DNA of 64,000 nucleotides from a virus. Its lineage: Duplodnaviria; Caudoviricetes. Each line of letters begins with the position of its first letter. Position 1 is the first letter of the stretch. The notes under the pieces were generated by a model, which saw only the letters and a program-made list of their open reading frames with translations, was not told the origin of the DNA and did not search any database. A program made the position numbers and the translations under genes. The stretch lies in IMG/VR virus record IMGVR_UViG_3300020440_000009, positions 1 to 64,000 of that record, one strand, 5' to 3'. Shown here piece after piece: positions 38,771 through 60,439 of the stretch.

Positions 38771-38780
38771 TTATCTTACC

Positions 38781-39218: not shown

Positions 39219-39252
39219 TTTGTATTCTCCTTGTTATCTTTTTTTTAAATTC

Positions 39253-42200
39253 TTATGCTCCGTCTGATGAACCAGTCGCTGAAGTTCCGTATGTCTTAGC
39301 TACAACATTCACTTTAGCTGTTCCTAGATCAATACCGTACATTGTTCCATCGATATTTATATCTAGAATCATATTTCTTCCTTTTCTTCTAAATCCTGCC
39401 ATCTCTCTAGGTATTTTACCTAATGCACATTCACCTGTTAGTGAAGGTGTATCACCATCTAAAGGTGCAGCCGATAAGATAGGTACTGTGAAGAACATAC
39501 CACCCATTTGGTTTACAGCCGATGTTGCCTGATCGGTTGAACCTGTACTATCATTGATAGGTTTATGTACTCTGATACCGGCTTTTCTAAAGAATTTTTG
39601 TGGGAAACCCTGGCCAACGAATTGTCCAAACTCACTTGTTCCAGACGTTGTTGTTTGTACATTAGTACCTATTGCAACTCCATGTGAAGCTCCACTTACC
39701 ATTGCATTATAACCAATGGCCATTCCAAATCTGTTTTTAGAAGTTAGACCACCCAGACTACCTGTATGACCTTCAACACTAGCTTCGTGACCAATAGCCA
39801 TGTTGGATGATCCAGAAACTACTGTTTCTGCACCAATAGCTATGTTTTCTGCCCCTTTAGCCTGTGCATCGTAGCCGACAGCAACGGTTTGATTGCCGTC
39901 TGCTAGTGTGTCTGGTCCAACTGCCACTGAGTATGTTCCTGTAGACTTAGCCACATATCCTATAGCTAGACTCTGATTTCCTTCGGCTGAAGTGGCACGA
40001 CCAATCGCCATTGCGGAATCAGCTTTGGATCTTGCGACCAAACCAATAGCCATTCCGTAATTATTTCTTACATGAGAAACTCCTCCGATAGCTATCTGAT
40101 ATCCTCCGGTTCCCTGAATTTCATTAGCGTATCCTAACATTACACCCTTATCAGAGGATGCCATTGTTTGGTTATTCAAACCTACTGCTGTGTGTCCGTG
40201 TCCTGATACTGTACCACCACCAATTAATACGTTAGCTGTTCCTGATACTACACTTTTCGATCTTTGTATAAGTGTTCCCGCACCACCATTAGTAATTCCC
40301 GTTCCAACAACGACATTTTCTTGACCTGATATGACTGGTGTTATCCCGAAACCTCTACCTGCTCCTATTAACACGTTTCTTTGACCTAAATTACGAGGAT
40401 TTCCAATAGGAACCACTCTTGTTCCGGCACCCACAAGTGTATTACCACCTGTTCGAGATACGCCCTTACCCACATCTTTTGCTGTGGCACCGATCGTGAC
40501 GCCTCGATAAGAGTTTGCGGATACTTGGTATCCTATACCTATTGCATCCTGGGAATCAGCTCCCGCCTCCATACCCATTGCGATTGAGTGTAGTTGTTCA
40601 GAGGATGTTAAATGTCCAATGGCTATTGAATCGTTACCATTAGTTAAATTTGAAATACCTACATTTACATTAGACGATCCTAACGCTCTACTGCTGTGAC
40701 CTATAATGGTTGAGAATTGGGCATCGGTTCTTGTAGTTCCACCACTTAATTTATGACCAAGTGCAACGCTACCTCTTGATTTTAAATAACTTTGGTTACC
40801 TATAACAAAACAATTATCACCATCTATTGCCGATGATTCGCTACCAATTGCAAGCGAAGATTGTGCAGAAACACTATTGCTATTACCAATGGTAATATTT
40901 AATCCTTGTGTTCTGTTTCGATTACCTATAGCGACTGTCTGACCATTATTTATCAAACGGTCACTCTGTGCATTATTATAATCAGTATTAAGATAACCAA
41001 TCTTAACCATACCTGTTCCACCACTAGTATTGTTGGATCTTCCTAAGAGTACATTACCATTTGTATTAACAGCGGCCTTAATGTGATTAGCTGTTCCAAG
41101 TAAAGTATTATAAGCACCATCGTTCGATATGTTAGCCTGTCCGAATATTAGATTGTTACCTTCTGCGTGATTTATTTTATTTTGACTACCGATTACATAT
41201 TCTACAGTACCACCTGCGTTAGTATTCTGATATCCAATAGCCCCGTTTATTCCAAAAAGAGAACCTACAGTGTTTTCGTTACCAGCGAGAATTGTTTGTC
41301 CTACACCAAGGTGAACAGTTGAATTTTCACGGTTTTCAGAACCTAATAAAAGTGCATGAGAGCCTGAGTTTTGGTAACCTAATGCGACTGAACCATTAGA
41401 TGCTCCTTGTGGGGTTGTTATGTTTCTAAATCCTATATTTGTTCTATGTGTTACGGCCGCCCCATCTCTGTTCTCATTTTGAACACCGATGTTAATTGAT
41501 GTTGATCCGTTTGGTACAATGTTCTTATTACCAATCGTTACTGAGTATAAAGAGCCTGAGACTGTATTGTCAGAACCAAGTGTGATACCAGCTTTAGCAT
41601 CTGCCGTACCTGATACATCATTTCGATGACCAATGATGATGCTTTCTTGTCCAGATAGCGTGTTACTGTCACCTATTATAACAGAACCACTTAAGTAAGA
41701 CCTGTTAGAGTTTCCTATGTAAACTTGACTTGTTTGTCCATACTGTAAATCTTTGTTCAATCTTCCAATGGCTGTAGAGAATTTACCAGAAAGTGTATTT
41801 TGGCGACCTAAAATATTTGTACCACCTAGTGAGTACAAACTTCTGTTGGATTCGCCAATGGCTATGGCAGTTCCTCCGGCTCTACTATTCGTACCTTTTA
41901 CCTTGTTAATATATCCTAATATTACATTAGGTTGCCCGGCCGCTCTTTGGCTAGATTCTATGTTCTCTTTACCCATTATAACACTACCAAAAGCTCCAGT
42001 ACCTGAGTTTTGGAAACCTATTGCGATTGATTCACCTTTTGCTGAGTTTTGGTAACCTAGTGCTATACTACCACTGTTGTTATTATCAGATTGTTGAATA
42101 TTTGATTCACCAATACCTATACCTCTAAGTCCTGATACAGAGTTAGTAAGACCGATAGATACAGAAGCAAGCTGACCTTTGTTACCTTTACCAATGATTA

Positions 42201-43512
42201 CGTTCTGACCACCAACATTACTACTACCTAAGGCCGCTGTTGCACTTATCTCATAGTTTTGTGAACCAATTAAAATAGCGTCTGAGTTACCACTTGTAGT
42301 ATTGCCGTGACCAATAATAACACCGGAACCGGCTGCCATAATTGAGTTGTTGCTATGACCGATTGCAATTACACCTTCACCATCTACAAGTCTATTTTTA
42401 TATCCTAAAATTAAACCTCTACTATTTGCACCCGTATTATTGTTATAAGCACCAAATGTCAAGTTAGAATTAACATTTGTTCCGATTACATTACTTATGC
42501 CTATTCCAAATGTACCGTCACTCGTAAAAGATCCGACTGAGCCTGTGTTTGTTTGACCTATCGCCATTGCTTTAGAGGCAATAGCAGATTCTATTCTATT
42601 GTTTTCACCAAATGCCATATGGCCTGAGTTTGCCACACCTACCAAAGTTGTGTTTTGGTTAAGACCGGTTCCTTCAGCTATATTATCACTACCAATTAAG
42701 TAAGATTCTGATGAATCTCTAAGTTGATTAGAATTACCCAGCATAGCACCTTTACTCGCAACATCGCTAGTTTGTGTGTTTCCAACACCAAGACTGGTTA
42801 TTTGAGCGCCTGCGATTGAGTTTTGTGATCCTATAGCCACAGAATAAGAGCCACTAACACCGTCTGAAGCATTTGACCCTCTCACACCAGCTATGTCAAT
42901 GATACCTATTTTGCCATTGTAGTTGAAGTTGGTGTTGAGACTCATTCCACCTATCAAGCAATTCTGTCCAACATTGTCTTGAAAGTTAGCAAATCTTAAA
43001 CCTGGTGCAGTTTGTGTAAGTCCACTTAAAACCATGAATGAAACTGCTGAGGGTTTGTAATCATTAATATCTTGATCATCGGTACCATCTAATGTAATTG
43101 ATTTTACGCTAGTATGACCAGATATTACAAATTTACCGGAGTTCGTTAGATCAACATCCACACCAGAAGTTAAAACAGTATTGGCCGATAAAGCTTTTTG
43201 AGCCACTGATGTGTTTGTCGTAACAATCTGAGCAGAGAGTGGTGTTCCTTTGCCAGCTTTACCACTCAATTCTGCTATAAGAGAATCATCACTCGTAGCA
43301 GAAATTGTCAAAGAAGCAACTCTACCAGATAAAGGTAATCCTTTACCAGCTTTACCACTCAATTCTTGTATTAATACGGTATTTTGGTCGGGGTTTTGTG
43401 CTGAAAGTTCATATGTAATACCGCTTACTGTTTCTAATACGGTAAAAGCATTATTTATCGCATTTCTCCACTGTAAGTTCGTCTGATTGTTACCTAGCGG
43501 TGTTAATGACAT
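39253..43512 (-). CDS. Long fibre protein built of YadA/Hia head-like (Hep_Hag-type) repeats
   Basis: About 1100 residues of [SAG]xx[IL]Gxx[NS/A] repeats (e.g. SVAIGSQN, SLAIGYVAKS, TVAVGYDAQA, NIAIGAET), the pattern of trimeric autotransporter head beta-rolls. Confidence 0.8.
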   Translation of the reverse strand: MSLTPLGNNQTNLQWRNAINNAFTVLETVSGITYELSAQNPDQNTVLIQELSGKAGKGLPLSGRVASLTISATSDDSLIAELSGKAGKGTPLSAQIVTTNTSVAQKALSANTVLTSGVDVDLTNSGKFVISGHTSVKSITLDGTDDQDINDYKPSAVSFMVLSGLTQTAPGLRFANFQDNVGQNCLIGGMSLNTNFNYNGKIGIIDIAGVRGSNASDGVSGSYSVAIGSQNSIAGAQITSLGVGNTQTSDVASKGAMLGNSNQLRDSSESYLIGSDNIAEGTGLNQNTTLVGVANSGHMAFGENNRIESAIASKAMAIGQTNTGSVGSFTSDGTFGIGISNVIGTNVNSNLTFGAYNNNTGANSRGLILGYKNRLVDGEGVIAIGHSNNSIMAAGSGVIIGHGNTTSGNSDAILIGSQNYEISATAALGSSNVGGQNVIIGKGNKGQLASVSIGLTNSVSGLRGIGIGESNIQQSDNNNSGSIALGYQNSAKGESIAIGFQNSGTGAFGSVIMGKENIESSQRAAGQPNVILGYINKVKGTNSRAGGTAIAIGESNRSLYSLGGTNILGRQNTLSGKFSTAIGRLNKDLQYGQTSQVYIGNSNRSYLSGSVIIGDSNTLSGQESIIIGHRNDVSGTADAKAGITLGSDNTVSGSLYSVTIGNKNIVPNGSTSINIGVQNENRDGAAVTHRTNIGFRNITTPQGASNGSVALGYQNSGSHALLLGSENRENSTVHLGVGQTILAGNENTVGSLFGINGAIGYQNTNAGGTVEYVIGSQNKINHAEGNNLIFGQANISNDGAYNTLLGTANHIKAAVNTNGNVLLGRSNNTSGGTGMVKIGYLNTDYNNAQSDRLINNGQTVAIGNRNRTQGLNITIGNSNSVSAQSSLAIGSESSAIDGDNCFVIGNQSYLKSRGSVALGHKLSGGTTRTDAQFSTIIGHSSRALGSSNVNVGISNLTNGNDSIAIGHLTSSEQLHSIAMGMEAGADSQDAIGIGYQVSANSYRGVTIGATAKDVGKGVSRTGGNTLVGAGTRVVPIGNPRNLGQRNVLIGAGRGFGITPVISGQENVVVGTGITNGGAGTLIQRSKSVVSGTANVLIGGGTVSGHGHTAVGLNNQTMASSDKGVMLGYANEIQGTGGYQIAIGGVSHVRNNYGMAIGLVARSKADSAMAIGRATSAEGNQSLAIGYVAKSTGTYSVAVGPDTLADGNQTVAVGYDAQAKGAENIAIGAETVVSGSSNMAIGHEASVEGHTGSLGGLTSKNRFGMAIGYNAMVSGASHGVAIGTNVQTTTSGTSEFGQFVGQGFPQKFFRKAGIRVHKPINDSTGSTDQATSAVNQMGGMFFTVPILSAAPLDGDTPSLTGECALGKIPREMAGFRRKGRNMILDINIDGTMYGIDLGTAKVNVVAKTYGTSATGSSDGA

Positions 43513-47868: not shown

Positions 47869-48702
47869 TTATTTTTTTAAGTGTGCAAAGTTTTTATAAT
47901 AAAGATTCGCCAAATTACCTCTACCTAAAAGTTCCTCAGGATTGTCAAAAATAATCTTAGAGTAAACACCTCCGTAATGTATACAATAGGCTTCTTTTTT
48001 AAGAAACTCAGGTTTTAAAACATCAGCGATTGCATTCCATTTACAATCCAAGAATGAATATGATATTCCTAAATTATGAACCATACCGTTTATTAAAGGC
48101 ATATCTTCAGTTCCAAAGTTTTTATGAGGCCAAGCATTTGTTTGATCAATAGACTTTCTATTGTTTAGCATGTTAACCCAGTTTTCTCTAAAAAGCTTTC
48201 TACACTTTCTATTCGCTATCCAAACACCTGTATTCATATACTCATGAATCTTATGATAAAAATCATAAATGTAGGCATGATCTTTGATAAAATCCATACT
48301 GTATCTAGTTTTTATAAAAATATTATTGTAATATTTAGCATAACCATTAGGTTCATTGACAGCATGAAAATCTTTTGACTTATCTATCTCGTTAAAGATA
48401 TTAGGTATATCATCTGGAGACTTCATTACAATATCCGAGTCAATATACATTATCCATTCATATTCATCAAATTTTTCTTCGCAAAGAGCCAGACACCATA
48501 AAAACTTCATAAAGACATCTTTATATACTTTACTTTCTGGTAAATCGGGTTTGTCTTCGAAGATATAATCACAACCTATGCTCTTGGCATATTCACTAAC
48601 AGTTTCTTTAGACTTTAGAACTAATCTTCCGTCGGAATATTTTCCGCCATTGTGACCATCATTCTTACCTGTTTGTATAAAGCACTGATAAATTAAATTC
48701 AT
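47869..48702 (-). CDS. GT-A fold glycosyltransferase (GT8/GT34-like), tandem copy A
   Basis: DXD motif YIDSDIV, NTGVWIA, EDMPLINGM, KWNA, IHYGG. Confidence 0.8.
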   Translation of the reverse strand: MNLIYQCFIQTGKNDGHNGGKYSDGRLVLKSKETVSEYAKSIGCDYIFEDKPDLPESKVYKDVFMKFLWCLALCEEKFDEYEWIMYIDSDIVMKSPDDIPNIFNEIDKSKDFHAVNEPNGYAKYYNNIFIKTRYSMDFIKDHAYIYDFYHKIHEYMNTGVWIANRKCRKLFRENWVNMLNNRKSIDQTNAWPHKNFGTEDMPLINGMVHNLGISYSFLDCKWNAIADVLKPEFLKKEAYCIHYGGVYSKIIFDNPEELLGRGNLANLYYKNFAHLKK

Positions 48703-49547
48703 ATTAAGTCCTTAAGATGTTCATAGAACATATGTGTTAAATGTGTTTTACCTAATAATTCTGGATATTTAAACATGATTTTCGCTCTTGGACCTGCGTA
48801 ATGTAGAGCGTATGCCTCATTTTTAAGAAAATCAGGTCTCATAGATCCACATGTTGCGTTCCATTTACAATGTAAAAATGAATATGATATTCCTAATTTA
48901 TGAATCATACCGTTTATCAAAGGTTGATCGGTATAAGCTAAACCAGGTCTTGGATATCTAGATTTTGATTCATCTAATGTCTTTTTGTTTTTAAGTGTGT
49001 TAACCCAGTTTTCTCTAAAAAGCTTTCTACACTTTCTATTCGCTATCCAAACACCTGTGTGCATTTGATCATATAATTTATGATAGAAGTCATAAATGTA
49101 GGCACGATCTTTAATAGCTTCTAAACAAAGTCTAGTTGTTTGATAAGGGTCATTATAATAATCTTTCATGCCGATAGGCTCGTTAACCGCATGAAAATCT
49201 TTTGTTTTGTCTATCTCGTTAAATATATTTGGTAGTTTTTCAGGAGATTTCATCACTATGTCCGAGTCAATGTGTAAAATCCATTCATATTCATCAAATT
49301 TTTCCTCACACAAAGCCATGCACCAAAGATATTTCATAAAATTTTTATTAAATATTTTATCTTTTGGTAAATCAGGTTTATCTTGAAATATATAATCACA
49401 ACCTATGTTTTCTGCATATTTTTTAACTGAGTTTTTAGAAGCCTCTAATAGTTTTTCATCGTCCGTATTACCGAACCACCTGCTAACATCATCTTCTTTA
49501 TATCCATTTTCTCCCGTTGTGACAAAACATTGATAAATTAAATTCAT
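48699..49547 (-). CDS. GT-A fold glycosyltransferase (GT8/GT34-like), tandem copy B
   Basis: HIDSDIV, HTGVWIA, DQPLINGM, KWNA, LHYAG; close paralog of copy A. Confidence 0.8.
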   Translation of the reverse strand: MNLIYQCFVTTGENGYKEDDVSRWFGNTDDEKLLEASKNSVKKYAENIGCDYIFQDKPDLPKDKIFNKNFMKYLWCMALCEEKFDEYEWILHIDSDIVMKSPEKLPNIFNEIDKTKDFHAVNEPIGMKDYYNDPYQTTRLCLEAIKDRAYIYDFYHKLYDQMHTGVWIANRKCRKLFRENWVNTLKNKKTLDESKSRYPRPGLAYTDQPLINGMIHKLGISYSFLHCKWNATCGSMRPDFLKNEAYALHYAGPRAKIMFKYPELLGKTHLTHMFYEHLKDLI

Positions 49548-50459
49548 TTAGAATACTTCCTCTCCAATAAAATCATTTAACATCTTATTAAATGGCTTAT
49601 AATATTCCTGTATATATTCTACATGTTCATCTTTTATTTCAGAAGACGCATCATATAGTTTAGAATTAAAATCGTGTGATTGAACTTTTAGGTTTTTATT
49701 TATTTCTATTTCATCTATATCTAAAAAATTAAATATAGAATTATAATATTTCTTTTTATCTTCAGGACTACCTGATAAATCCGAGAATTTGTTTATTAGA
49801 ACATTTCTATTAAAGTTTGATTTACCTATCATGGATAGTATATTTTTTATGTGAGTTATGTATTCACCTTGATAAAAATAATTACCTCTCCCTTGTCTAT
49901 AATTCTTTGTGTACCAACCTTGATTTTTATGCATTTCGACTATTTCATCTAGTTTATTAGGTTCTAAACCTAATCTTTGATTTGCTATGTAATCTATTTC
50001 GTTTTTGTGTTTGTTGTAAAAATCTTCACCATTTCTGTTTATAACATCTGCTATTGAATTTGGATTAGTAGACATTTCAAACACCATTCTAAAGTGTTTA
50101 TAATGTGATAAAAATCTATCAACAGGCTCTCTTAAACATATCATCATTTTTATATTAGGAAAATCAGTTAACAATCTACTCATTTCCAAAGGACAATAAA
50201 AATATGAAGGTGTACATTCAAAATTCTTTATTTTGGGGTTAAGATTAGTTGACCATATTTCTTTATATGCATTTAGTGTTCTATCATGATAAAAAGAATC
50301 ATAGTAATGATATTCTTTTCGTAAAGGTCTTTGAAAGCCTCCACCCCAACCATCACCTTCGAATAATAAAGGGTGTTCTTTAATATTATTCCAAACAGTT
50401 GAAGAACCTGTTTTCATGGGACCTAACATTATAAAATCTGGACCTCTACCTACATACAC
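49548..50459 (-). CDS. PAPS-dependent sulfotransferase
   Basis: GTG start. 5'-PSB loop PDFIMLGPMKTGSSTVW..IKEHP, KEYHYYD, ECTPSYF and 3'-PB motif LREPVDRFLSHY, as in glycan (heparan-sulfate-type) sulfotransferases. Confidence 0.88.
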   Translation of the reverse strand: MYVGRGPDFIMLGPMKTGSSTVWNNIKEHPLLFEGDGWGGGFQRPLRKEYHYYDSFYHDRTLNAYKEIWSTNLNPKIKNFECTPSYFYCPLEMSRLLTDFPNIKMMICLREPVDRFLSHYKHFRMVFEMSTNPNSIADVINRNGEDFYNKHKNEIDYIANQRLGLEPNKLDEIVEMHKNQGWYTKNYRQGRGNYFYQGEYITHIKNILSMIGKSNFNRNVLINKFSDLSGSPEDKKKYYNSIFNFLDIDEIEINKNLKVQSHDFNSKLYDASSEIKDEHVEYIQEYYKPFNKMLNDFIGEEVF

Positions 50460-50463
50460 GTTT

Positions 50464-52770
50464 CTATTCTCCTAAATCTTCAAAGTTATTATTTTTTAGT
50501 CTTAGCCATCTTTTATATTCATGATGATTTTCAAATCTGTCTACAGTTTCTTGTTTTATGAGACCCTCTGAAACATAATAGTCCCATCCTTTATTTGAAC
50601 TAGTATTTGATCTTGGTTTACTTTTATATTTGTGTGAGAAATAAGTCTCTAGGAAATGTCCGAAGTTTTCATCGTTGAACTCTTTTACAAAATCTAATTG
50701 TATAATCCAATAAGGTATACTCCAAAGTATCAGATTTTCAGGTTTTAACATCTCATTTACAAAAGCATCTATACTCATTTTTTTTATATCCATTTCAACT
50801 AACTTAAATGGATTTTTCTCTGACTCTTTCTCTACTGCGAAACACCAAAGAGAACATATCAAATCTTTAGGCTCACGAACAAATGTAAACAAGAACCAGC
50901 CATTCTTCTTATATTGCAAAATGGTATCTCTGTCCCAACTTATGTGATGATTGTGTACGAAAGCCATACCTTTTTCTTGTTTATCAATATCAAGTAACTC
51001 TTCTTGAGTAAAGTCTCTCCATATCTCTGAATACCAAGTATTGTATATTTTGTGATTTTTCAATATGTCCCAGAGATAGTCCATTGTATAAACACCTGCA
51101 CATTTACCAAAATGTATAAAACCTATCTTTTTAGGAGTAGTTGATATTTCACTTATACCAAACTCATCTTTTATGAAGTCTAATACAAAACTATTCTTAC
51201 CTTCACATGATACTTTAAGTGTAGATACAAGTCTTTTTATGTCTTTTTGAACATTAGTGTCTTTGAAGTTTATTTCAGGGTCTGTATGAACATGATAACT
51301 TTTTATCTCACCTAATGTTTCTTCTAGATACTCTATATCTTCTGCAAAATAGTTTCTCCAAAACCCTATATTATGTGTTCTGTCAAATATATCTGTATCA
51401 AAAAAGTTAGGTATATTATTCATACACTCTTGTTCATAAAAAAGAGAATCGTGTAAGTAATTCTTTTCCCACCAGTCTGGAAAATCTTTTCTAGCACAAA
51501 ACAGATAACCAGCGTTATATATACCTGAAACACTTTCATGTGAATTTTTATTTAATATGAAATGATAGTGTGGTGATAAGACCACTTCATGACTATATGT
51601 TAAGTCTAATTCATGAACTAGTATAATATCAGCATCTAAGAAAAAAGTGGTATTATGTTCACTCATCGCAAATCTCATAGCTGACATCTTTTTCAGAATA
51701 GGCATTTTTTGATGATATTGATTTAAATTTAGGTGTTTAGAACTCATCTCTTTAGATTTCTCTTCTATTTGTTCTTCATCTAATTCTACGGAGAAATATA
51801 AATCTTTTATGTTGTACTTTTCTGCTCTTTTTTCTATATATTCTTTTGAAACAGTGTCACACACAATGTAAATTGGTTGATAATGAAATTTTCTAATACT
51901 CCTTATAGATATGAAGGACTCTTTCATCATAGGTTCTGTTGTTACAGTTGAAAAACTTTGAAGATAGTGTTTTTTATCTGATTTCTTTTTATTTAAGACT
52001 AGATTTAAATGTCTATCTTTATCATCACAGTAAACGACAGTATGTGCAAAATCATGGTCTCCTGTTAAAAGTGCTTGTGACATAAGACGATTTAACTGTT
52101 CATCATCTCTATGTCTTAGTATCGTCTTGTTTTTCTTTCTTTTATTTAATACGAAATCATCATACTGACCTACAGAGTCATTGATGCTTATGAAAACTCT
52201 ACAACATCTTACACCTAAAGGAGTGTTTTTTGTATTTTCAAGTAAAGTTCTATCAATACTAGATAAGAACTCACTTACACTCTCTACTTCATTGTCTAGT
52301 ATGAATACAAAATTAATCCACTCACCTGATTGTAGAATAGGTGATATAAGACTTAAGTCTTCAAATCGATTTATATTCATGACTAGATTTCTATTCTGTA
52401 AACCATCTCTGGTACTATATCCGTGATTCGCTCTAACACTTGTTATTTTTTTAAGACTTTTAAGATTATACTCTTCTGGAAAATATTTCTTTTTTATGTC
52501 TTCGTCTTTTTCTAGAATTACAGAAACCTTGGTTTTGTCTATTTGTTTTATTGAGGAATCATCTGTGATACCCTGAAGACAGAATGAATTTGAAAAACTC
52601 TCATCAATCAGAAAGTAATTACCGCTATTTAGAAGAAACGATTCTTTTTTATTGTGATTAGCTCTTTTTACTTGATCAACAATTAGGTCTTCATAGAATT
52701 TGTAAACATTGTCTTCTACTTTCTTTAGATTATATGTTTCATCTTTGAAATGTAACTTAGGTACAGCCAT
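50464..52770 (-). CDS. Multidomain protein: unknown N-terminus, GT-A glycosyltransferase and C-terminal sulfotransferase-like domain
   Basis: FFLDADII, YNAGYL, FYEQECM, NIGFWR (GT); IGFIHFGKCAGVY and FTFVREPKDLICSLW (sulfotransferase PSB/PB-like). Confidence 0.72.
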   Translation of the reverse strand: MAVPKLHFKDETYNLKKVEDNVYKFYEDLIVDQVKRANHNKKESFLLNSGNYFLIDESFSNSFCLQGITDDSSIKQIDKTKVSVILEKDEDIKKKYFPEEYNLKSLKKITSVRANHGYSTRDGLQNRNLVMNINRFEDLSLISPILQSGEWINFVFILDNEVESVSEFLSSIDRTLLENTKNTPLGVRCCRVFISINDSVGQYDDFVLNKRKKNKTILRHRDDEQLNRLMSQALLTGDHDFAHTVVYCDDKDRHLNLVLNKKKSDKKHYLQSFSTVTTEPMMKESFISIRSIRKFHYQPIYIVCDTVSKEYIEKRAEKYNIKDLYFSVELDEEQIEEKSKEMSSKHLNLNQYHQKMPILKKMSAMRFAMSEHNTTFFLDADIILVHELDLTYSHEVVLSPHYHFILNKNSHESVSGIYNAGYLFCARKDFPDWWEKNYLHDSLFYEQECMNNIPNFFDTDIFDRTHNIGFWRNYFAEDIEYLEETLGEIKSYHVHTDPEINFKDTNVQKDIKRLVSTLKVSCEGKNSFVLDFIKDEFGISEISTTPKKIGFIHFGKCAGVYTMDYLWDILKNHKIYNTWYSEIWRDFTQEELLDIDKQEKGMAFVHNHHISWDRDTILQYKKNGWFLFTFVREPKDLICSLWCFAVEKESEKNPFKLVEMDIKKMSIDAFVNEMLKPENLILWSIPYWIIQLDFVKEFNDENFGHFLETYFSHKYKSKPRSNTSSNKGWDYYVSEGLIKQETVDRFENHHEYKRWLRLKNNNFEDLGE

Positions 52771-52798
52771 CCGTCTCTCCTTAACAATACAACTCTAT

Positions 52799-53659
52799 TT
52801 ATCTATTATACATCGTATTGTGATAGCTTAAAACCTCTTTTCGTAGCTTTTTATTTGACGACCATTGAAGTAGACCTGTTTTTGAATCAGTTTGTAAGTC
52901 CAAATTTGGATTAAAATTAAATCTTTCTAATATTTTTTCTCTAAACTCATATTTTCGATTGTAATTACCATGATAAAGATGTTCTATTTCTCTATTTTCT
53001 AAGTAACCAGAACTCTCAATGTGTTTCTGACATAGCTTATAATAATCAGTGTAAAGTTTTTTAAGCTGACTACAATTATTGAGAGTCCTCTTTGATATAT
53101 TCTTTAAATTACCAGTAAAAGCACCTGCTAATAGACAGTCACCATTTCCTGTTATATGATAATCAAAAAGACCACCTATTTTATCAAGTACATCTCGTCT
53201 GATTGCCCAGCCGTATCCTGTCCAACCTTTTATCTCATCGACAAAGCAATTATTATGAACTTTATATGTACAACCATCTTCGTCTAGTTGGCGAACAGTT
53301 TCAAATAGTTGTATTACGGAGTGTTTTTGTAATTTTTTTGAAATAGCCCAGTCTGTCATTGCATGACTAAAGATAATGTCTGCATCCACCCAAGATATGT
53401 ATTCAAATTCTTTTGGTATCTTTTTTATAGCAATATTTATAAGTCTTTCTTTCTGCCATATAACTGTGTTCTTATCAGCACGGAGTCTTATAAATCTTTC
53501 GGATTCTGGTATTCTAAATTGACTATCACCAAACGCTAGTTCAATCACAAACATATTATTATTCCAGGAATTTAAATTTCTGAATTTTTCAAAGTTCTTA
53601 TTTTGATAAGAATCTTTTTTATATGTAAAGACCGGAACTATGAAGGCGGTTTTACTCAT
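52799..53659 (-). CDS. GT-A fold glycosyltransferase
   Basis: WQKERLINIAI..IP..FEYISWVDADIIF, GYGWAIRR, GNGD, HLYHG. Confidence 0.78.
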   Translation of the reverse strand: MSKTAFIVPVFTYKKDSYQNKNFEKFRNLNSWNNNMFVIELAFGDSQFRIPESERFIRLRADKNTVIWQKERLINIAIKKIPKEFEYISWVDADIIFSHAMTDWAISKKLQKHSVIQLFETVRQLDEDGCTYKVHNNCFVDEIKGWTGYGWAIRRDVLDKIGGLFDYHITGNGDCLLAGAFTGNLKNISKRTLNNCSQLKKLYTDYYKLCQKHIESSGYLENREIEHLYHGNYNRKYEFREKILERFNFNPNLDLQTDSKTGLLQWSSNKKLRKEVLSYHNTMYNR

Positions 53660-55640: not shown

Positions 55641-55910
55641 TTATACCGTTTTTCTCTTATATTTATAGTAAACAATGACCATTGTAATCGCTGAAAATAG
55701 ACCGGCTAGATAATTTGACAACCACCAAAAGTCATATCCAACTCTTAAAATCGTATAAAATATAGCTGATATATAACCTACAACGGACAGTGTAAAGAGA
55801 GGTAAACTTATATCTTCAACCGATTTTGTTCTAATTGATTTGATTATCTGAGGCCAGTAGCATATCATAAAACATATCGTATATATTACACCTAAAATGT
55901 TTTCTATCAT
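55641..55910 (-). CDS. SemiSWEET/PQ-loop membrane transporter
   Basis: 89 aa with three hydrophobic helices; YWPQIIKSIRTKSVEDIS is the SemiSWEET PQ motif. Confidence 0.85.
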   Translation of the reverse strand: MIENILGVIYTICFMICYWPQIIKSIRTKSVEDISLPLFTLSVVGYISAIFYTILRVGYDFWWLSNYLAGLFSAITMVIVYYKYKRKTV

Positions 55911-56726: not shown

Positions 56727-57173
56727 CTATTTTTGACTATCTCCAGGTAAAACTCTGTAGTTATCTTCTACGGAATCAGGTGTGGAAACCTCAATTATTT
56801 CTGAATTATCTTCAAGAGCAATAAGCTGATGTGGTTCTAATGGCTCGTTTCTCCAAGTCTCACCTTCTTGTAGAATAACAGACCTCTGTTCAGCATTCTT
56901 GGTGTTGATATAAATTAGTTCAAAAGAGCCTTTGTTTACATACCAAGACTCGTCTTTTTCTCGGTGAAAATGCATTGAGAACTTCGACATAGCTTTGTTA
57001 AAATGCATAATTTTACCACAATACTTATCATTTGTAGCAAATATCAATTCATATCCCCAAGCCTTATCTACCTTACCTTCTAGTCTCTCTGTGAAAGAGC
57101 CGTCAGTGTAATAGTCTTTACTACCATAACTGGTGGTATGCGTTCTCTTATCCACAACAAAATATTCACTCAT
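56727..57173 (-). CDS. Cupin (sugar-phosphate isomerase-like) protein
   Basis: KAWGYE, YCGKIM, SMHFHREKDESWYV, PHQL, EVSTPD. Confidence 0.78.
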   Translation of the reverse strand: MSEYFVVDKRTHTTSYGSKDYYTDGSFTERLEGKVDKAWGYELIFATNDKYCGKIMHFNKAMSKFSMHFHREKDESWYVNKGSFELIYINTKNAEQRSVILQEGETWRNEPLEPHQLIALEDNSEIIEVSTPDSVEDNYRVLPGDSQK

Positions 57174-57981
57174 TTTCTATATACTCCCTTATATCAATCC
57201 AGTCTAACTTAAAGTATTTCTCTAATTGTCCTAGATTAGCTTGTGTAAATTCTTGATACTGTCCTTTTAATTTATCAGGAAAAGGTATCTCAACTATTGG
57301 TACATTATACTTATTTGACAGGGCTTTTGCGATGTCCAAGAAACTAATTGCCTTACCTGTTCCTACATTGAAAACACCATTTTCTTCTATATCAAACATT
57401 CTTAAATGACATTCACACACATCATCTACACAAACAAAATCTCTCTTATAATTTTCACTACCTTCAAATATTCTTATCTCACCATCTTCTAATGCTTGTT
57501 TCTTAAACTTGTGATAAGGACTTGCTTGATCACCTTTATGATCTTCATGTTGTCCATAAACATTAAAGTATCTGAAGCCTTGAACTGTTATAGGATGAGT
57601 AACTTTCTCATACCACAACCATCTATCAAATAGATATTTTGACCAAGCATATGGACTTTCTGGTCTGAGAGGACCATCTTCTGTAAAATGTTCTGTCTGT
57701 CCGTAAACACTCGCACTACTAGAATACTGGAAGTGTACACCATGTTTACAACACTCTTCGTATAGCCATCTAGAAAACTCAAGATTGACATTGATTATCT
57801 TGTCAACATCTCTCTCCGTTGTAGAAGATATTGCACCGAAATGAATTACTTTGTCCATTCCTCTAACATCAGGTAAGTCTGTCGTGTTTAGTTCATAACC
57901 ATATAGTTCATGGTCTTTAGTCAGACGATTAACCATATTCTGACCAATGAAACCTTTGTTACCTGTTATTAATATCTTCAT
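57166..57981 (-). CDS. hldD: ADP-L-glycero-D-manno-heptose 6-epimerase
   Basis: ITGNKGFIG, HFGAISSTTE, YSSSASVYG, PESPYAWSK, FRYFNVYG..EDHKG, RDFVCVDD, YQEFTQA. Confidence 0.88.
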   Translation of the reverse strand: MKILITGNKGFIGQNMVNRLTKDHELYGYELNTTDLPDVRGMDKVIHFGAISSTTERDVDKIINVNLEFSRWLYEECCKHGVHFQYSSSASVYGQTEHFTEDGPLRPESPYAWSKYLFDRWLWYEKVTHPITVQGFRYFNVYGQHEDHKGDQASPYHKFKKQALEDGEIRIFEGSENYKRDFVCVDDVCECHLRMFDIEENGVFNVGTGKAISFLDIAKALSNKYNVPIVEIPFPDKLKGQYQEFTQANLGQLEKYFKLDWIDIREYIENE

Positions 57982-58721
57982 TTCTTTAAATCACCTTTCT
58001 TTATCCAAGCTGTTAAGCCTGACCAAGTCTCGTAATTATTCGATGGTAAAATATACAATATTTCGGGTATCACTTTTTTTATATTCTTTAAAACTTTAAA
58101 AACATCATGTTTCTTTTCATTAACATCGTGAAAAAATACATATCCATCTTTTTTACAATGATTATATGCATACATTATATCCCAAGCGACAGCAGGGTAA
58201 TCATGACCACCATCAACAAATATAAAATCAAACTTCTTATTCTTAAGTATTTCTGGTAAGAAGAAAGAGTTTTTGTTTATATATTTTACGTTAGATTGAT
58301 TTATATTTTTATTAAAAAATTGCTTATCATTTTTTCTAATAGCTAACTCTTGATAACTCTCATCATCTTCTGAAAGATCACAGGTGATTATATTTGCATC
58401 AGGCCATAATTTAGAAAATAAATTAGTCATCTCACCTTTACCTGTACCTATTTCTAAAATGTCTTTTATATCAGGTCTGTGAATCGATAGAGATGTAAAA
58501 TATATAAAATCTTTTCCTTGTCCTTTAAAATCTTTAGTCACAAAGTAAATGTTTTCAGGTCCAACTATAGACATTAACTTATCTTCAGCTTTTTTTACAT
58601 CAGTTAATTCCCAATCACAATAATTAATTCCTCTATAATCTTCGAACTTTATATTAGCTACCGAACTTCTATTGAAAAAGTACTCATAAGCATCAGGACC
58701 ACACTCTACAACATCTTTCAT
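57978..58721 (-). CDS. Class I SAM-dependent methyltransferase
   Basis: ILEIGTGKG, FDFIFVDGGHDY, FFHD. Confidence 0.82.
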   Translation of the reverse strand: MKDVVECGPDAYEYFFNRSSVANIKFEDYRGINYCDWELTDVKKAEDKLMSIVGPENIYFVTKDFKGQGKDFIYFTSLSIHRPDIKDILEIGTGKGEMTNLFSKLWPDANIITCDLSEDDESYQELAIRKNDKQFFNKNINQSNVKYINKNSFFLPEILKNKKFDFIFVDGGHDYPAVAWDIMYAYNHCKKDGYVFFHDVNEKKHDVFKVLKNIKKVIPEILYILPSNNYETWSGLTAWIKKGDLKK

Positions 58722-58722
58722 T

Positions 58723-59148
58723 TTACTGGCTCATCTCTTCTATAATCTTCGTGGTCGAATAACCCTCTACAGTAGGTACAATATAGACAGGTGCGATGTC
58801 TTTTCCTACGACATCATCTGGTTCATAGTCACCACCTTTGACAATACAGTAAGGTTCTAACTCTTTGATGAGTTCATAAGGTGTGTCTTCTTCAAAAATA
58901 ATTACTCGATCAACATAAGGTATCTGTTCTAAATTTCTTTTTCTTACATCTTGACTGTTAACTGGTCTATCTTCACCTTTAAGTCTTTTTGTACTCTCAT
59001 CTGAATTGATACCAACAACAACAGTTGATTTACCTATATCATAACAATATTTCAATAGTTCGATGTGTCCTTTATGTAGTATATCGAACACACCGTTTGT
59101 AAAAACAATTTCTCTAAATTCTCTAGGTACTACATATTCTTCACTCAT
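58723..59148 (-). CDS. rfaE2: D-glycero-beta-D-manno-heptose 1-phosphate adenylyltransferase (RfaE domain II/HldC)
   Basis: VFTNGVFDILHKGH, VGINSDES..RLKG..RP, FEEDTP, KGGDY, GYSTTKII; probable start MSEE at 59148. Confidence 0.9.
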   Translation of the reverse strand: MSEEYVVPREFREIVFTNGVFDILHKGHIELLKYCYDIGKSTVVVGINSDESTKRLKGEDRPVNSQDVRKRNLEQIPYVDRVIIFEEDTPYELIKELEPYCIVKGGDYEPDDVVGKDIAPVYIVPTVEGYSTTKIIEEMSQ

Positions 59149-59774
59149 GTTAATTTTCTCCATTGACTAGGATCTAGTGTTTTATTTTCAAGTTTCTCTT
59201 TTGACGTAATCATTAAATCATAAGAAACACAATATCTATCTTTTTCTGAAAATGACTCGCTTACATAATGTAGTAAATTAGAGGGAAAGATAACAAGTGT
59301 CCCGTCTTCAGGCTTTAACTTATGTATATGTGACTCACAATTAATAGGTAGGTTTTGAAACAAATCATATTCACTTTCAAATGTGAGTTCTGCACCTTCA
59401 TCTTTATTGACTGAAATATAGAACACACAACTTAAGTGAGCGTTTACATGCTTATGTGGTGAAACTCCACCTTCTTTTTGAAGTCTGACACCCCAAGATT
59501 TTTGTACATAAACATCCGGTATATTTTCTGAACCTAGTTTATTAATATACTTTCTAGTCTGCTTTGCGATGAACTTGTTTACATCTGAAAAGCAGTCTAA
59601 CTCATGTGGTTGTTTTATATCACTATAAATATCGCCAAAAAAAGAAGGATTATGAGAACTAGAATTAAAACTAGAGTCCCGTACAAGATTCGAAACAGCT
59701 TGTATAAGATTTTCTTTATCATATTCCTCCATCTTCGCTTGGAAGATAGGTGTCCCTAAAATATATTCTACCAT
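59145..59774 (-). CDS. Phage-type 2OG-Fe(II) oxygenase
   Basis: HKH..AHLSCVFY, LVIFPSNLLHYV, RYCVSYD. Confidence 0.8.
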   Translation of the reverse strand: MVEYILGTPIFQAKMEEYDKENLIQAVSNLVRDSSFNSSSHNPSFFGDIYSDIKQPHELDCFSDVNKFIAKQTRKYINKLGSENIPDVYVQKSWGVRLQKEGGVSPHKHVNAHLSCVFYISVNKDEGAELTFESEYDLFQNLPINCESHIHKLKPEDGTLVIFPSNLLHYVSESFSEKDRYCVSYDLMITSKEKLENKTLDPSQWRKLT

Positions 59775-59780
59775 ACTAAA

Positions 59781-60278
59781 TTACTCAAAAGCTGAAAGTC
59801 TTGAAGATACAGAGGTCGCTGAAATTGAAGTATTCTTAATGTTCGCTATCTCGATCCGTTTAACAATATCATCTACTGACTCAATCGTTGGTCTCTCTTC
59901 TGTAGACTCATCGAAAGTTAAATGATAAAGTGATGAACTATCTAACATAAAAGATTCCTCACTACTGGTATATCCAGGTAATTGGCTTATCTTATAATAA
60001 GTTTCTTGTAATGGTCCGTCAATCTCTGTACCAACGAATCTGGCCGAGAGACCATCTCCACTTATTTGACCTGTAATTACATTGTAACTAACTGAGTCTC
60101 CAGCTTCACTTACATATGCTTCAATATCATCGTGGTTATCTTCCCAGTCAATAAATGAATTTTTACCCGATCTATCTGATTGATATTCTAATCCCGAAAG
60201 TAATGACCATCTAGAATTTACTTCCAACTGATCTCTCATACCTTTAAATCTATAAACATTAAATGTGTAATTCGCCAT
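59781..60278 (-). CDS. Hypothetical protein, probably late-expressed
   Basis: 165 aa ORF preceded by GTAAATA (60294-60300) and an AGG SD. Confidence 0.6.
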   Translation of the reverse strand: MANYTFNVYRFKGMRDQLEVNSRWSLLSGLEYQSDRSGKNSFIDWEDNHDDIEAYVSEAGDSVSYNVITGQISGDGLSARFVGTEIDGPLQETYYKISQLPGYTSSEESFMLDSSSLYHLTFDESTEERPTIESVDDIVKRIEIANIKNTSISATSVSSRLSAFE

Positions 60279-60439
60279 AAAAAACCTTTCCTGTATTTAC
60301 CATTTTTCTACCCAATCTTTTGGGTTCCTTTCATAAGTTTCAGATAGGTAATTATACAAAAAATAAAACGTGATTATAATCAATACAACTAAAAGAAAAG
60401 GTGCATACTGCACCAAGTCATAGTAATCTAATTTACCCG

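What the first reader, a model, noticed from the sequence alone, without database searches (positions are those of the whole stretch)
47869..53659. Phage-encoded glycosyltransferase plus sulfotransferase operon: candidate sulfated-glycan synthesis system
Seen: five contiguous co-oriented genes carrying four GT-A domains and two sulfotransferase domains, one with clear PAPS-binding motifs (KTGSS; LREPVDRFLS). Further up the same strand are a SemiSWEET, cupin, ADP-heptose enzymes, methyltransferase, 2OG oxygenase and HAD phosphatase. Established: GTs glycosylate virions in chloroviruses, mimiviruses and some mycobacteriophages, and modify DNA or host LPS in other phages; PAPS-dependent sulfotransferases of this motif type sulfate glycans. 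Inference: the phage builds a sulfated (possibly methylated, heptose-containing) glycan on its virion, DNA or host surface, for camouflage, superinfection exclusion or anti-defence. I know of no characterised phage pathway of this kind. No PAPS-synthesis gene is visible in this window.
Basis: partly seen in the sequence, partly recalled or inferred. Interest (0 to 1): 0.8.

Follow-up and report, generated by a model that had tools for sequence, protein, structure and literature searches.

The report
Phage sulfated-sugar cassette, swappable island
An uncultured marine T4-like phage carries a tight five-gene set of four sugar-adding and two sulfate-adding enzyme domains, which most likely builds a sulfated sugar chain; no such product has yet been shown for any phage, and its target, probably the phage's own fibres or else the host surface, is untested.

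Summary
Positions 47869-53659 (minus strand) hold five tightly packed genes:
- g5, a GT2-like GT-A glycosyltransferase.
- g4, a 768-aa protein with an unassigned N-terminal domain, a GT8 domain and a sulfotransferase domain.
- g3, a sulfotransferase resembling heparan-sulfate 3-O-sulfotransferase.
- g2 and g1, two GT8-like paralogs that are 59% identical.

All five are soluble, and g3-g5 are under purifying selection (dN/dS 0.11-0.20).

This stretch is a swappable island:
- A close relative (L195) lacks g1 and g2.
- A sister phage (L052) keeps both flanks. In the same slot it carries a non-orthologous set: GT-A, sulfotransferase, a GT4-sulfotransferase fusion and radical SAM/SPASM genes.
- Marine populations vary in g1/g2 copy number and in whether the upstream methyltransferase is present.

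The GT8(-sulfotransferase) gene was found in 49 other IMG/VR contigs. There it almost always lies directly behind tail-fibre genes, on the same strand and usually overlapping them. It gave no tblastn match in 50,697 GenBank phage records and no match in a motif scan of 185,579 prokaryote genomes.

Best reading: cytoplasmic synthesis of a sulfated oligosaccharide using host PAPS. I put sulfated-glycan synthesis at about 0.8, the virion fibre as acceptor at about 0.45, and host LPS or capsule at about 0.3.

No PAPS-synthesis gene lies in the 88.5-kb contig, which is about 44% of the genome.

Earlier unchecked notes of this scan report similar cassettes beside tail fibres on other DNA. Published work annotates phage sulfotransferases but has not characterised them.

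The parts
52799..53659 (-). g5: GT2-like GT-A glycosyltransferase (286 aa), first gene of the cassette. The DxD motif D92/D94 is invariant among its homologs.
   Evidence: AlphaFold model at pLDDT 90. Foldseek E 7e-8 to 1e-6 to chondroitin synthase, heparosan synthase and SpsA. 264 relatives in IMG/VR. No Pfam hit of its own.
51970..52770 (-). g4 N-terminal region (residues 1-267). Residues 1-24 form a hairpin conserved across the whole family. Residues 25-267 are an unassigned insertion shared only with P0001 and P0002.
   Evidence: Alignment A1. pLDDT below 50 over residues 21-130 and 187-260. No usable Atlas match.
51154..51969 (-). g4 GT8-fold (retaining-type GT-A) domain, residues 268-539. 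Invariant residues: D379 and D381 (LDADI), N419-A420-G421, H466, H493, H495.
   Evidence: VIA Z 15.3 (6mw8), 14.8 (3u2t), 13.4 (1g9r). Foldseek hits to GlyE, LARGE1 and glycogenin. Invariant columns.
50476..51135 (-). g4 sulfotransferase domain, residues 546-765. 5'-PSB-like FIHFGKCAG (K556), 3'-PB-like VREPKDLICS (R632, S640), and conserved NHH (H608) as candidate base.
   Evidence: VIA Z 11.2 (3f5f HS2ST), 10.9 (SULT7A1), 10.2 (NDST1), 10.1 (3-OST-5). hhalign to the viral Sulfotransfer_2 family c12: probability 95%, E 2e-8.
49548..50459 (-). g3: stand-alone sulfotransferase (303 aa). GPMKTGSS (5'-PSB), KEYHYYD (aligns with the EPHFFD of HS 3-OST) and CLREPVDRFLS (3'-PB).
   Evidence: Pfam PF00685 E 9e-6. 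PDB HS 3-OST-3A at E 3e-5 and NDST1. 3354 remote relatives, the nearest outside its own cluster at 33% identity or less.
48699..49547 (-). g2: GT8-like GT-A paralog (282 aa); HIDSDIV as DxD, HTGVWI, HYAG.
   Evidence: 59% identical to g1. Family profile A4 has as best PDB hit the PBCV-1 capsid-glycosylating GT A64R, E 0.003. Absent from relative L195.
47869..48702 (-). g1: GT8-like GT-A paralog (277 aa), last gene of the minus-strand array.
   Evidence: Pfam PF01501 E 2.4e-5, at the cut-off. Collapsed with g2 into one hybrid gene in run X9 (joint 48170>48998).
52805..52811 (-). GTATAAT element 41 nt upstream of the g4 start, followed by an AAGGAG ribosome-binding site. Possible internal sigma-70-type promoter.
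   Evidence: Sequence match only; not shown to be functional.
56727..59774 (-). Upstream sugar-nucleotide and tailoring genes on the same strand: cupin (56727-57173), ADP-heptose 6-epimerase-like (57166-57981), Methyltransf_24 (57978-58721, polymorphic), RfaE-II adenylyltransferase (58723-59163), 2OG-Fe(II) oxygenase (59145-59774). Their link to the cassette is inferred only.
   Evidence: Methyltransferase absent in L195, L052 and runs X9, X3, X6.
55641..55910 (-). SemiSWEET (89 aa, PQ-loop), between the sugar-nucleotide genes and the cassette. Absent from relative L195.
   Evidence: Pfam PF04193 E 3e-14. blastn gap in L195.
60293..60300 (-). GTAAATAC late-promoter-like motif 22 nt before the first gene (59781-60278) of the minus-strand array.
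   Evidence: 8 of 10 copies in the contig lie within 80 nt upstream of same-strand starts, mostly of structural genes.

Best explanation
The five genes form a self-contained, soluble, cytoplasmic assembly line. It builds a short sulfated oligosaccharide from host nucleotide sugars and host PAPS.

Proposed steps:
- g5 (GT2-like, probably inverting) and the GT8-type domains of g4, g2 and g1 (probably retaining) each add a sugar.
- The sulfotransferase domain fused to the g4 GT8 domain sulfates the sugar that its partner domain has just added, or its acceptor.
- g3 adds a second sulfate.

The cassette occupies a fixed, swappable slot between replication genes. Like an O-antigen locus, it is exchanged for non-orthologous sets of the same kind.

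The most likely acceptor is a virion fibre or other surface protein of the phage, which would give a sulfated glycoprotein coat.

Shown: the domain folds, the cofactor-binding motifs, purifying selection, island behaviour, and synteny with fibre genes in other phages.
Inferred: the donors, the order of steps, PAPS use and the acceptor.

My odds: sulfated-glycan synthesis about 0.8; virion protein as acceptor about 0.45. The confidence given is for the full statement.
For: - Folds and motifs of all six catalytic domains.
- Tight operon spacing.
- No transmembrane segment in any of the five proteins: maximum KD19 is 1.23 or less.
- dN/dS against relative L195: g3 0.20, g4 0.11, g5 0.14.
- Analogous replacement in the same slot of sister phage L052: GT-A, Sulfotransfer_3, GT4-Sulfotransfer_2 fusion, rSAM/SPASM. 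The flanks are 55-96% identical at protein level.
- In other viral contigs the GT8 gene is fused to a sulfotransferase, split from one, or paired with a Sulfotransfer_2 gene. GT-ST coupling therefore recurs in several forms.
- The gene before the GT8(-ST) gene is on the same strand in 48 of 48 loci. It overlaps or lies within 20 nt in 36 of them.
- In about 35 loci the preceding genes are a tail fibre (PHROG tail-fibre and collagen-like hits), a Laminin_G_3 protein and a small ORF.
- About half of those fibres carry long collagen-type GXY runs.
- The fibre C-terminal domain next to the GT gene is also present in this phage at 14097-14894.
- The g1/g2 family's best PDB sequence hit is the chlorovirus capsid-glycosylating GT A64R, a marginal E 0.003.
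- A late-type promoter motif heads the minus-strand array.
- Iyer et al. 2010 (PMC2938197) predicted sulfation of tail-collar and collagen-like proteins in bacterial operons.
Against: - In this phage the cassette lies among replication genes, not next to fibre genes. The nearest fibre-like genes end 4.4 kb away at 43512.
- The fibre C-terminal domain occurs in 62 viral loci, and only 11 of those hold a GT8 gene. The enzyme is therefore an optional add-on and not tied to that fibre.
- A position behind fibre genes is also typical of accessory genes that change the host surface.
- GT8 also includes soluble LPS-core enzymes such as LgtC, and ADP-heptose genes lie upstream.
- Expression timing is ambiguous: a sigma-70-like GTATAAT lies before g4.
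- No PAPS-synthesis gene was found, so activity depends on an unknown host.
- No biochemical data exist for any member.
Confidence: 0.45

Rival explanations
1. The cassette remodels a host envelope glycan (LPS core or O-antigen, capsule or exopolysaccharide) on the cytoplasmic face during infection. This adds sulfated sugars that block superinfection or stop progeny from sticking to debris.
For: - GT8 includes soluble LPS-core transferases: LgtC at Z 13.4.
- ADP-heptose 6-epimerase-like and RfaE-II genes, classic LPS-core donors, plus SemiSWEET and a cell-wall hydrolase lie upstream on the same strand.
- Large marine cyanomyophages carry many GT and LPS genes that authors read as host-surface modifiers (PMC12801897).
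- Cassette swapping resembles serotype loci.
- Sulfated LPS and capsule occur in rhizobia (own knowledge: LpsS, NodH).
Against: - No initiating phosphoglycosyltransferase, flippase, polymerase or GT9 heptosyltransferase was found in the 88.5-kb contig.
- In other phages the GT8(-ST) gene overlaps the fibre-module genes, which suggests co-expression with virion parts.
- The heptose genes are kept while the cassette is swapped, so the two are not tightly coupled.
Confidence: 0.3
2. The enzymes glycosylate, and then sulfate, a hypermodified base in the phage DNA to evade restriction.
For: - The cassette is flanked by DNA-metabolism genes: a PD-(D/E)XK exonuclease, a DNA-binding protein, RNase H, a clamp loader, and ThyX further on.
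- Phage GT-A enzymes are known to build DNA glycans (bioRxiv 10.1101/2023.12.21.572611).
Against: - No dCMP/dUMP hydroxymethylase-type (PF00303) or TET/JBP gene was found in the contig, though it is only about 44% of the genome and the TET control search rang nowhere.
- In 48 other loci the gene sits in fibre modules, not DNA-modification clusters.
- Sulfated DNA is unknown, and the DNA-glycan paper does not mention sulfotransferases.
Confidence: 0.06
3. The cassette makes a soluble sulfated glycoside or modifies a metabolite or secreted peptide, not a virion, DNA or envelope polymer. Alternatively the sulfotransferase domains act on protein tyrosine or hydroxylated residues, not on sugars.
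For: - A SemiSWEET transporter lies upstream.
- Radical SAM/SPASM genes accompany the analogous cassettes.
- Iyer et al. link sulfotransferases with 2OG dioxygenases in peptide modification.
Against: - Fusion of GT8 to the sulfotransferase, and four GTs in a row, point to a glycan as the thing being sulfated.
- The nearest solved relatives of both sulfotransferases are carbohydrate sulfotransferases.
- No peptide precursor or NRPS gene was seen.
Confidence: 0.12

Closest known systems
Chlorovirus PBCV-1 A064R and related giant-virus capsid/fibril glycosylation machinery
   Same: - Virus-encoded, soluble, cytoplasmic.
- Several GT-A domains plus a glycan-tailoring domain in one protein (A064R: GT-GT-methyltransferase).
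- Accompanied by virus-encoded sugar-nucleotide enzymes.
- The A64R GT domain is the best PDB sequence hit of the g1/g2 family (E 0.003) and a Z 10.4 fold match of the g4 GT domain.
   Different: - A bacteriophage, not a eukaryotic virus.
- The tailoring domain is a sulfotransferase, not a methyltransferase.
- No glycan structure or acceptor is known here.
Mycobacteriophage virion O-glycosylation cassettes (Che8, Corndog, Myrna; Freeman et al. 2023, cited)
   Same: Phage-encoded GTs that decorate the phage's own structural proteins. In relatives of this cassette the GT gene lies inside the structural module.
   Different: - Those cassettes have no sulfotransferase.
- The hosts are Actinobacteria.
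- No sequence relation was tested or found.
- In this window the cassette is not beside structural genes.
Animal heparan-sulfate sulfotransferases (3-OST, NDST, HS2ST) and Sulfotransfer_2 carbohydrate sulfotransferases
   Same: - Fold, 5'-PSB and 3'-PB motifs.
- A Glu in g3 aligned with the EPHFFD segment of 3-OST.
   Different: - 15% identity or less outside the motifs.
- Cytoplasmic and without a Golgi membrane anchor.
- Fused to GT8.
- The acceptor is surely not heparan sulfate.
Multi-GT 'cell-wall synthesis and modification' clusters of large marine cyanomyophages (S-SCSM2R, S-SCSM1, P-SSM2; PMC12801897)
   Same: Large marine T4-like phages with clusters of GTs and sugar-nucleotide epimerases. 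Their function is untested.
   Different: - That paper reports no sulfotransferase.
- tblastn of g3 and g4 finds nothing in 50,697 GenBank phage records.
Rhizobial and mycobacterial sulfated glycoconjugate systems (NodH/NodPQ, LpsS, Stf0) - own knowledge
   Same: Bacterial-world PAPS-dependent sulfation of sugars on glycolipid or LPS.
   Different: - Those systems pair the sulfotransferase with PAPS synthesis genes; none is seen here.
- They have no GT-ST fusion.

Membership tests
PAPS-dependent sulfotransferase superfamily (Pfam PF00685 / PF03567 / PF13469) | Sulfotransferase alpha/beta fold | tested here: met
   g4 residues 546-765: Z 11.2, rmsd 4.0, 203 aligned (3f5f); 10.9 (5x2b); 10.2 (1nst). 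g3: PF00685 at 25.7 bits against a cut-off of 22.
PAPS-dependent sulfotransferase superfamily (Pfam PF00685 / PF03567 / PF13469) | 5'-phosphosulfate-binding loop with conserved Lys, and 3'-phosphate-binding Arg...Ser motif | tested here: met
   g3: GPMKTGSS and LREPVDRFLS (aligned to 3-OST). g4: FGKCAG (K556) and REPKDLICS (R632, S640), nearly invariant in 19 homologs and aligned to the corresponding motifs of a Sulfotransfer_2 family.
PAPS-dependent sulfotransferase superfamily (Pfam PF00685 / PF03567 / PF13469) | Catalytic base (His or Glu) correctly placed | tested here: inconclusive
   g3 E49 lies in KEYHYYD, aligned with EPHFFD of 3-OST-3A. That this Glu is the base is from my own knowledge. 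g4 has conserved N607-H608 between the two motifs. No active-site superposition was done.
PAPS-dependent sulfotransferase superfamily (Pfam PF00685 / PF03567 / PF13469) | PAPS-dependent sulfate transfer | not testable with these tools
   Needs an enzyme assay.
CAZy GT8 (retaining GT-A; Pfam PF01501) | GT-A fold closest to GT8 members | tested here: met
   g4 residues 268-539: Z 15.3 (6mw8), 14.8 (3u2t), 13.5 (5gvv), 13.4 (1g9r). g1: PF01501 at 24.5 bits against a cut-off of 24.3.
CAZy GT8 (retaining GT-A; Pfam PF01501) | DxD metal/nucleotide-sugar motif and the NAG/NSG loop | tested here: met
   g4: invariant D379, D381 and N419-A420-G421. g1/g2 family: invariant D94, D96 and G165-V166-W167.
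CAZy GT8 (retaining GT-A; Pfam PF01501) | Pfam model match above the gathering score for every claimed member | tested here: not met
   g2 and g4 give no PF01501 hit at E 0.01 or better. They are GT8-like by fold or paralogy, not Pfam members.
GT2-type GT-A (Pfam PF00535) | Pfam model match | tested here: not met
   g5 has no hit. Only 4 of 16 homologs reach E 0.013 or weaker. I file it as 'GT-A fold, GT2-like', not as PF00535.
GT2-type GT-A (Pfam PF00535) | GT-A fold with DxD | tested here: met
   Model at pLDDT 90. Foldseek E 7e-8 to 1e-6, TM up to 0.61 on the target. D92 and D94 are invariant.
Phage virion-glycosylation systems | GT genes embedded in, or co-transcribed with, structural genes | tested here: inconclusive
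   Met in relatives: 48 of 48 on the same strand, 36 of 48 within 20 nt of the preceding fibre-module gene. Not met in this window, where the neighbours are replication genes.
Phage virion-glycosylation systems | Glycan demonstrated on a virion protein | not testable with these tools
   Needs virions and mass spectrometry.
Phage DNA-glycosylation (hypermodification) systems | An enzyme that makes a hydroxymethyl or hydroxy pyrimidine acceptor (ThyA-like hydroxymethylase or 5mYOX/TET) | tested here: inconclusive
   PF00303 and PF12851 were not found in the 88.5-kb contig. The contig is about 44% of the genome, and the PF12851 control rang nowhere.
LPS/O-antigen/capsule assembly loci | Initiating transferase, flippase or ABC exporter, or a GT9 heptosyltransferase to use ADP-heptose | tested here: inconclusive
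   No transmembrane protein in the cassette. PF01075 was not found in the contig. The genome is incomplete and host machinery could serve.

The most novel reading that the evidence does not exclude
Marine tailed phages decorate their own tail fibres (many of them collagen-like) with sulfated O-glycans. The glycans would be made by fast-swapping GT/sulfotransferase cassettes, including a virus-specific GT8-sulfotransferase fusion. This would be a phage 'proteoglycan' coat that tunes adsorption, stickiness to marine gels or evasion of host defences. It would also be the first sulfated glycoprotein of any bacterial virus.
Probability: 0.4. Interest if true: 0.8.

Novelty: new variant of a known kind. 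Interest (0 to 1): 0.62.

Why it matters
Sulfated glycans are a hallmark of animal extracellular matrices and algal cell walls. They are rare in bacteria and have not been shown on any phage.

What a sulfated coat on virions, or on infected cells, would change:
- how we think about phage adsorption;
- how phage particles behave in seawater (charge, binding to gels and particles);
- how viral 'sulfur' genes are read in metagenomes, where sulfotransferases are now counted as auxiliary metabolic genes of unknown role.

The cassette is present in marine data sets of about ten studies from 2014 to 2025. Its gene content varies between near-identical phages, which suggests strong diversifying selection on the product.

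The GT8-sulfotransferase fusion may also be useful as a compact two-step enzyme for making sulfated sugars.

Tried and rejected
- blastn and tblastn of the region, g3 and g4 against 50,697 GenBank phage records: no match.
- PHROGs: only a weak unknown-function family for g1/g2.
- NCBIfam: nothing for g1, g3 or g5.
- Profile searches of A1 and A2 against PDB sequences: nothing significant. Fold comparison was needed.
- Single-sequence hhalign of g2 and g3 against A1: uninformative.
- g4 N-terminal domain: low pLDDT and no Atlas match above TM 0.42. Left unassigned.
- Motif scan of 185,579 prokaryote genomes with two GT8-domain peptides: no relative. Sensitivity was limited to those motifs.
- g3 in IMG/VR: no relative. 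Its nearest remote relatives are unnamed metagenome proteins.
- T4 late consensus TATAAATA is not enriched, and the sigma-70 and terminator scans are at shuffle level. Timing therefore rests only on the phage's own GTAAATAC and GTATAAT motifs.
- Host assignment failed: no tRNA, and GroEL is about 60% identical to generic bacterial GroEL.
- A metatranscriptome run (X9) holds contigs of the cassette. Contigs in an RNA library do not show transcription.
- PAPS-synthesis, hydroxymethylase, TET and GT9 genes were not found, but only in about 44% of the genome, so their absence from the phage is not established.
The 113,962-bp relative contig that holds P0034 could not be fetched.
- I did not run complex prediction. 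An enzyme with a guessed substrate is a poor use of that test.

Full report
**What the window is.** The window is the first 64 kb of an 88.5-kb IMG/VR viral contig, which CheckV estimates at about 44% complete. It belongs to a divergent T4-like myophage:
- a large terminase about 35% identical to those of Pseudomonas pf16, Sinorhizobium phiM12/phiN3 and cyanophages;
- a baseplate wedge, a gp19-like tail tube, RNase H, a clamp-loader subunit and a segE homing endonuclease;
- further along the contig, ThyX, GroEL, an AAA+/VWA pair and a subtilase.

GC content is about 32%. The stretch recurs in marine and seawater metagenomes of about ten studies from 2014 to 2025.

Positions 47869-53659 carry five minus-strand genes with spacings of a 4-nt overlap, 0, 4 and 28 nt.
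- g1 (277 aa) reaches the Pfam GT8 gathering score.
- g2 (282 aa) is its 59%-identical tandem paralog.
- The g1/g2 family profile finds as its best solved relative the PBCV-1 capsid-glycosylating transferase A64R, at a marginal E 0.003.
- g3 (303 aa) is a Sulfotransfer_1 member. Its nearest solved relatives are heparan-sulfate 3-O-sulfotransferase and NDST.
- g4 (768 aa) has no Pfam hit. A model built from 19 homologs resolves two domains. Residues 268-539 have a GT8 fold: Z 15.3 to the Skp1 alpha-galactosyltransferase, 14.8 to glycogenin, 13.4 to LgtC. Residues 546-765 have a sulfotransferase fold: Z 11.2 to HS2ST, 10.9 to SULT7A1, 10.2 to NDST1.
- The g4 sulfotransferase domain aligns by profile to a viral family that Pfam assigns to Sulfotransfer_2 (95% probability, E 2e-8). 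The phosphosulfate loop (FGKCAG) and the R...S motif are in register.
- g4 residues 25-267 are an unassigned insertion found only in its closest relatives.
- g5 (286 aa) was modelled at pLDDT 90. It is a GT2-like GT-A fold with an invariant DxD motif.

That makes four GT-A domains and two sulfotransferase domains, as claimed. None of the five proteins has a hydrophobic segment long enough to span a membrane. Against an 88-92% identical relative, g3, g4 and g5 have dN/dS of 0.20, 0.11 and 0.14, so they are maintained by selection.

**The surroundings.** Upstream on the same strand lie, in order:
- a 165-aa unknown;
- a TIGR02466-type 2OG oxygenase;
- an RfaE-domain-II heptose-1-phosphate adenylyltransferase;
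- a Methyltransf_24 enzyme;
- an ADP-heptose 6-epimerase-like SDR;
- a cupin;
- a cell-wall hydrolase;
- a SemiSWEET;
- a PD-(D/E)XK exonuclease;
- a DNA-binding protein;
- a 151-aa unknown.

But the sugar-nucleotide genes are separated from the cassette by unrelated genes and by gaps of 333 and 195 nt.

The phage has its own late-type motif, GTAAATAC. Eight of its ten copies lie within 80 nt upstream of same-strand starts, mostly of structural genes. One copy sits 22 nt before the first gene of this array. A GTATAAT element lies 41 nt before g4. Timing of the cassette is therefore open.

**The cassette is a swappable island.** Three comparisons show this.
- Contig L195 (about 90% nucleotide identity) has g5-g4-g3 and then runs straight into the clamp-loader gene. 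g1 and g2 are missing, and so are the methyltransferase and the SemiSWEET.
- Sister-phage contigs L052/L053 keep both flanks at 55-96% protein identity. Between them they carry a 48%-identical g5 relative, a Sulfotransfer_3/1 gene, a Glycos_transf_1 (GT-B) plus Sulfotransfer_2 fusion, and a radical SAM plus SPASM pair. None of these is an ortholog of g1-g4.
- Contigs from independent marine runs show two joints. One fuses g1 and g2 into a single hybrid gene. The other removes the methyltransferase precisely.

The boundaries of the variable stretch coincide with the coordinates of the finding. One GT/sulfotransferase set has been replaced by a different one of the same design: GT, sulfotransferase and a GT-sulfotransferase fusion. 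I take this as the strongest sequence-level argument that selection acts on a sulfated glycan, and on its variety.

**The GT8-sulfotransferase family elsewhere.**
- The word-index search found 18 relatives, all unnamed marine metagenome proteins of about 540 aa.
- IMG/VR holds 49 loci.
- tblastn against GenBank phages and a two-motif scan of 185,579 prokaryote genomes found none.
- The sulfotransferase part is fused in about 20 loci and is a separate downstream ORF in about 10. In others it is replaced by a neighbouring Sulfotransfer_2 gene, often with radical SAM/SPASM or methyltransferase genes.
- The g1/g2 family accompanies it in four loci.
- In all 48 usable loci the preceding gene is on the same strand. 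In 36 of them the two ORFs overlap or lie within 20 nt.
- In about 35 loci the preceding genes are a large tail fibre (PHROG tail-fibre and collagen-like hits), a Laminin_G_3 protein and an 80-aa ORF.
- About half of these fibres have long collagen-type GXY runs, up to 54 triplets in a row.
- Several share a 125-aa C-terminal domain that also occurs in this phage, at 14097-14894 among its giant fibre genes.
- That domain is found in 62 viral loci, and only 11 of them have the enzyme. The enzyme is therefore an optional accessory of fibre modules, not a fixed partner.

**Mechanism.** I read the cassette as a cytoplasmic assembly line.
- One probably inverting GT (g5) and up to three probably retaining GT8-type domains extend a short glycan.
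- The sulfotransferase fused to the g4 GT8 domain sulfates the sugar that its neighbour handles.
- g3 adds a second sulfate.
- PAPS must come from the host. No APS kinase, ATP sulfurylase or CysD-type gene is in the contig, though more than half of the genome is unseen.

The acceptor is inferred. Several things favour virion fibre or surface proteins (about 0.45):
- the fibre-module position and overlap in other phages;
- the lack of any membrane or export component;
- the top fold matches being enzymes that act on protein-linked glycans (GlyE, Skp1 GalT, glycogenin, LARGE1), although LgtC scores within 2 Z units of these;
- the precedent of chlorovirus, mimivirus and mycobacteriophage virion glycosylation.

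A host LPS or capsule target remains a serious rival (about 0.3):
- GT8 includes soluble LPS-core enzymes;
- ADP-heptose genes lie upstream;
- accessory genes that change the host surface also gather near fibre genes.

DNA modification is unlikely (about 0.06). A small-molecule or peptide target takes about 0.12, and the remainder is unassigned.

**What is known.**
- Papers annotate sulfotransferases in marine phages and viral contigs (Sulfotransfer_3 in OM43-phage relatives and in Synechococcus phage S-SRM01) and state that their role is unclear (PMC10580990; PMC8290583).
- Large cyanomyophages are known to carry up to 13 GTs of untested function (PMC12801897).
- DNA-glycan GTs are characterised, but without sulfation.
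- Iyer et al. 2010 predicted that bacterial operons hydroxylate and sulfate tail-collar and collagen-like proteins (PMC2938197).

I found no paper that describes a GT-sulfotransferase fusion or a sulfated product for a phage. Earlier unchecked notes of this scan report sulfation/glycosylation cassettes beside tail fibres in several other uncultured phages. My synteny result agrees with those notes but was obtained independently, from this gene's own relatives.

**Verdict.**
- It is a new variant of a known kind, namely virus-encoded glycan-building cassettes. The added features are sulfation, a virus-specific GT8-sulfotransferase fusion, and clear island behaviour.

Noticed in passing
window 45473(+), 46402(+), 47560(+), 60790(-), 62102(+); contig 72762(-), 86579(-): GTATAAT lies exactly 12 nt before the start codon of at least seven genes that lack a Shine-Dalgarno sequence. 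This suggests leaderless or near-leaderless early/middle transcripts in this phage.
   Followed up: partly
window 22221, 28956, 33483, 33501, 35385, 36535, 45440, 60300 and others: GTAAATA(C) is a promoter-like motif. Eight of ten GTAAATAC copies lie within 80 nt upstream of same-strand starts, mostly of structural genes. It is probably this lineage's late promoter, in place of T4's TATAAATA.
   Followed up: partly
window 57978-58721 and 55641-55910: The Methyltransf_24 gene and the SemiSWEET gene are precise presence/absence polymorphisms. Both are absent from relative L195. The methyltransferase is also absent from L052 and from contigs of three marine runs.
   Followed up: yes
window 36500-43512: Two G/S/T-rich fibre-like genes lie in a 40%-GC patch of a 32%-GC genome. 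One encodes 1419 aa with YadA-head-like GxxNxAxG repeats; the other encodes 756 aa with a LamG-like CLSFDGTDD segment. PHROGs gives no hit for either. They are possible acquired adhesin-type fibres and candidate glycan acceptors.
   Followed up: no
L052:10259-11459; L021:11863-12999: Radical SAM plus SPASM genes travel with the sulfotransferase/GT cassettes in the sister phage and in several other viral contigs. Their role is unknown: sugar tailoring, or a maturase of the sulfatase-maturating (anSME) type.
   Followed up: no
window 52699-52770 (g4 residues 1-24) and all A1 homologs: The GT8-sulfotransferase family shares a conserved 24-residue N-terminal beta-hairpin (M..P.L.I.D.EVGLR.LG.GLFEPKN) ahead of the catalytic domains. 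It may be a docking element.
   Followed up: no
runs X3/X4: Two 2024 runs labelled with a named organism, not 'metagenome', hold 97% of the cassette's sampled words. This could be a host culture or a single-cell sample and so a lead to the host.
   Followed up: no
contig 82429-83271 (L050:18429-19271): A further 280-aa ORF with a faint GT2-type signal (PF13704, E 0.009) lies 29 kb from the cassette. It may be a fifth glycosyltransferase.
   Followed up: no
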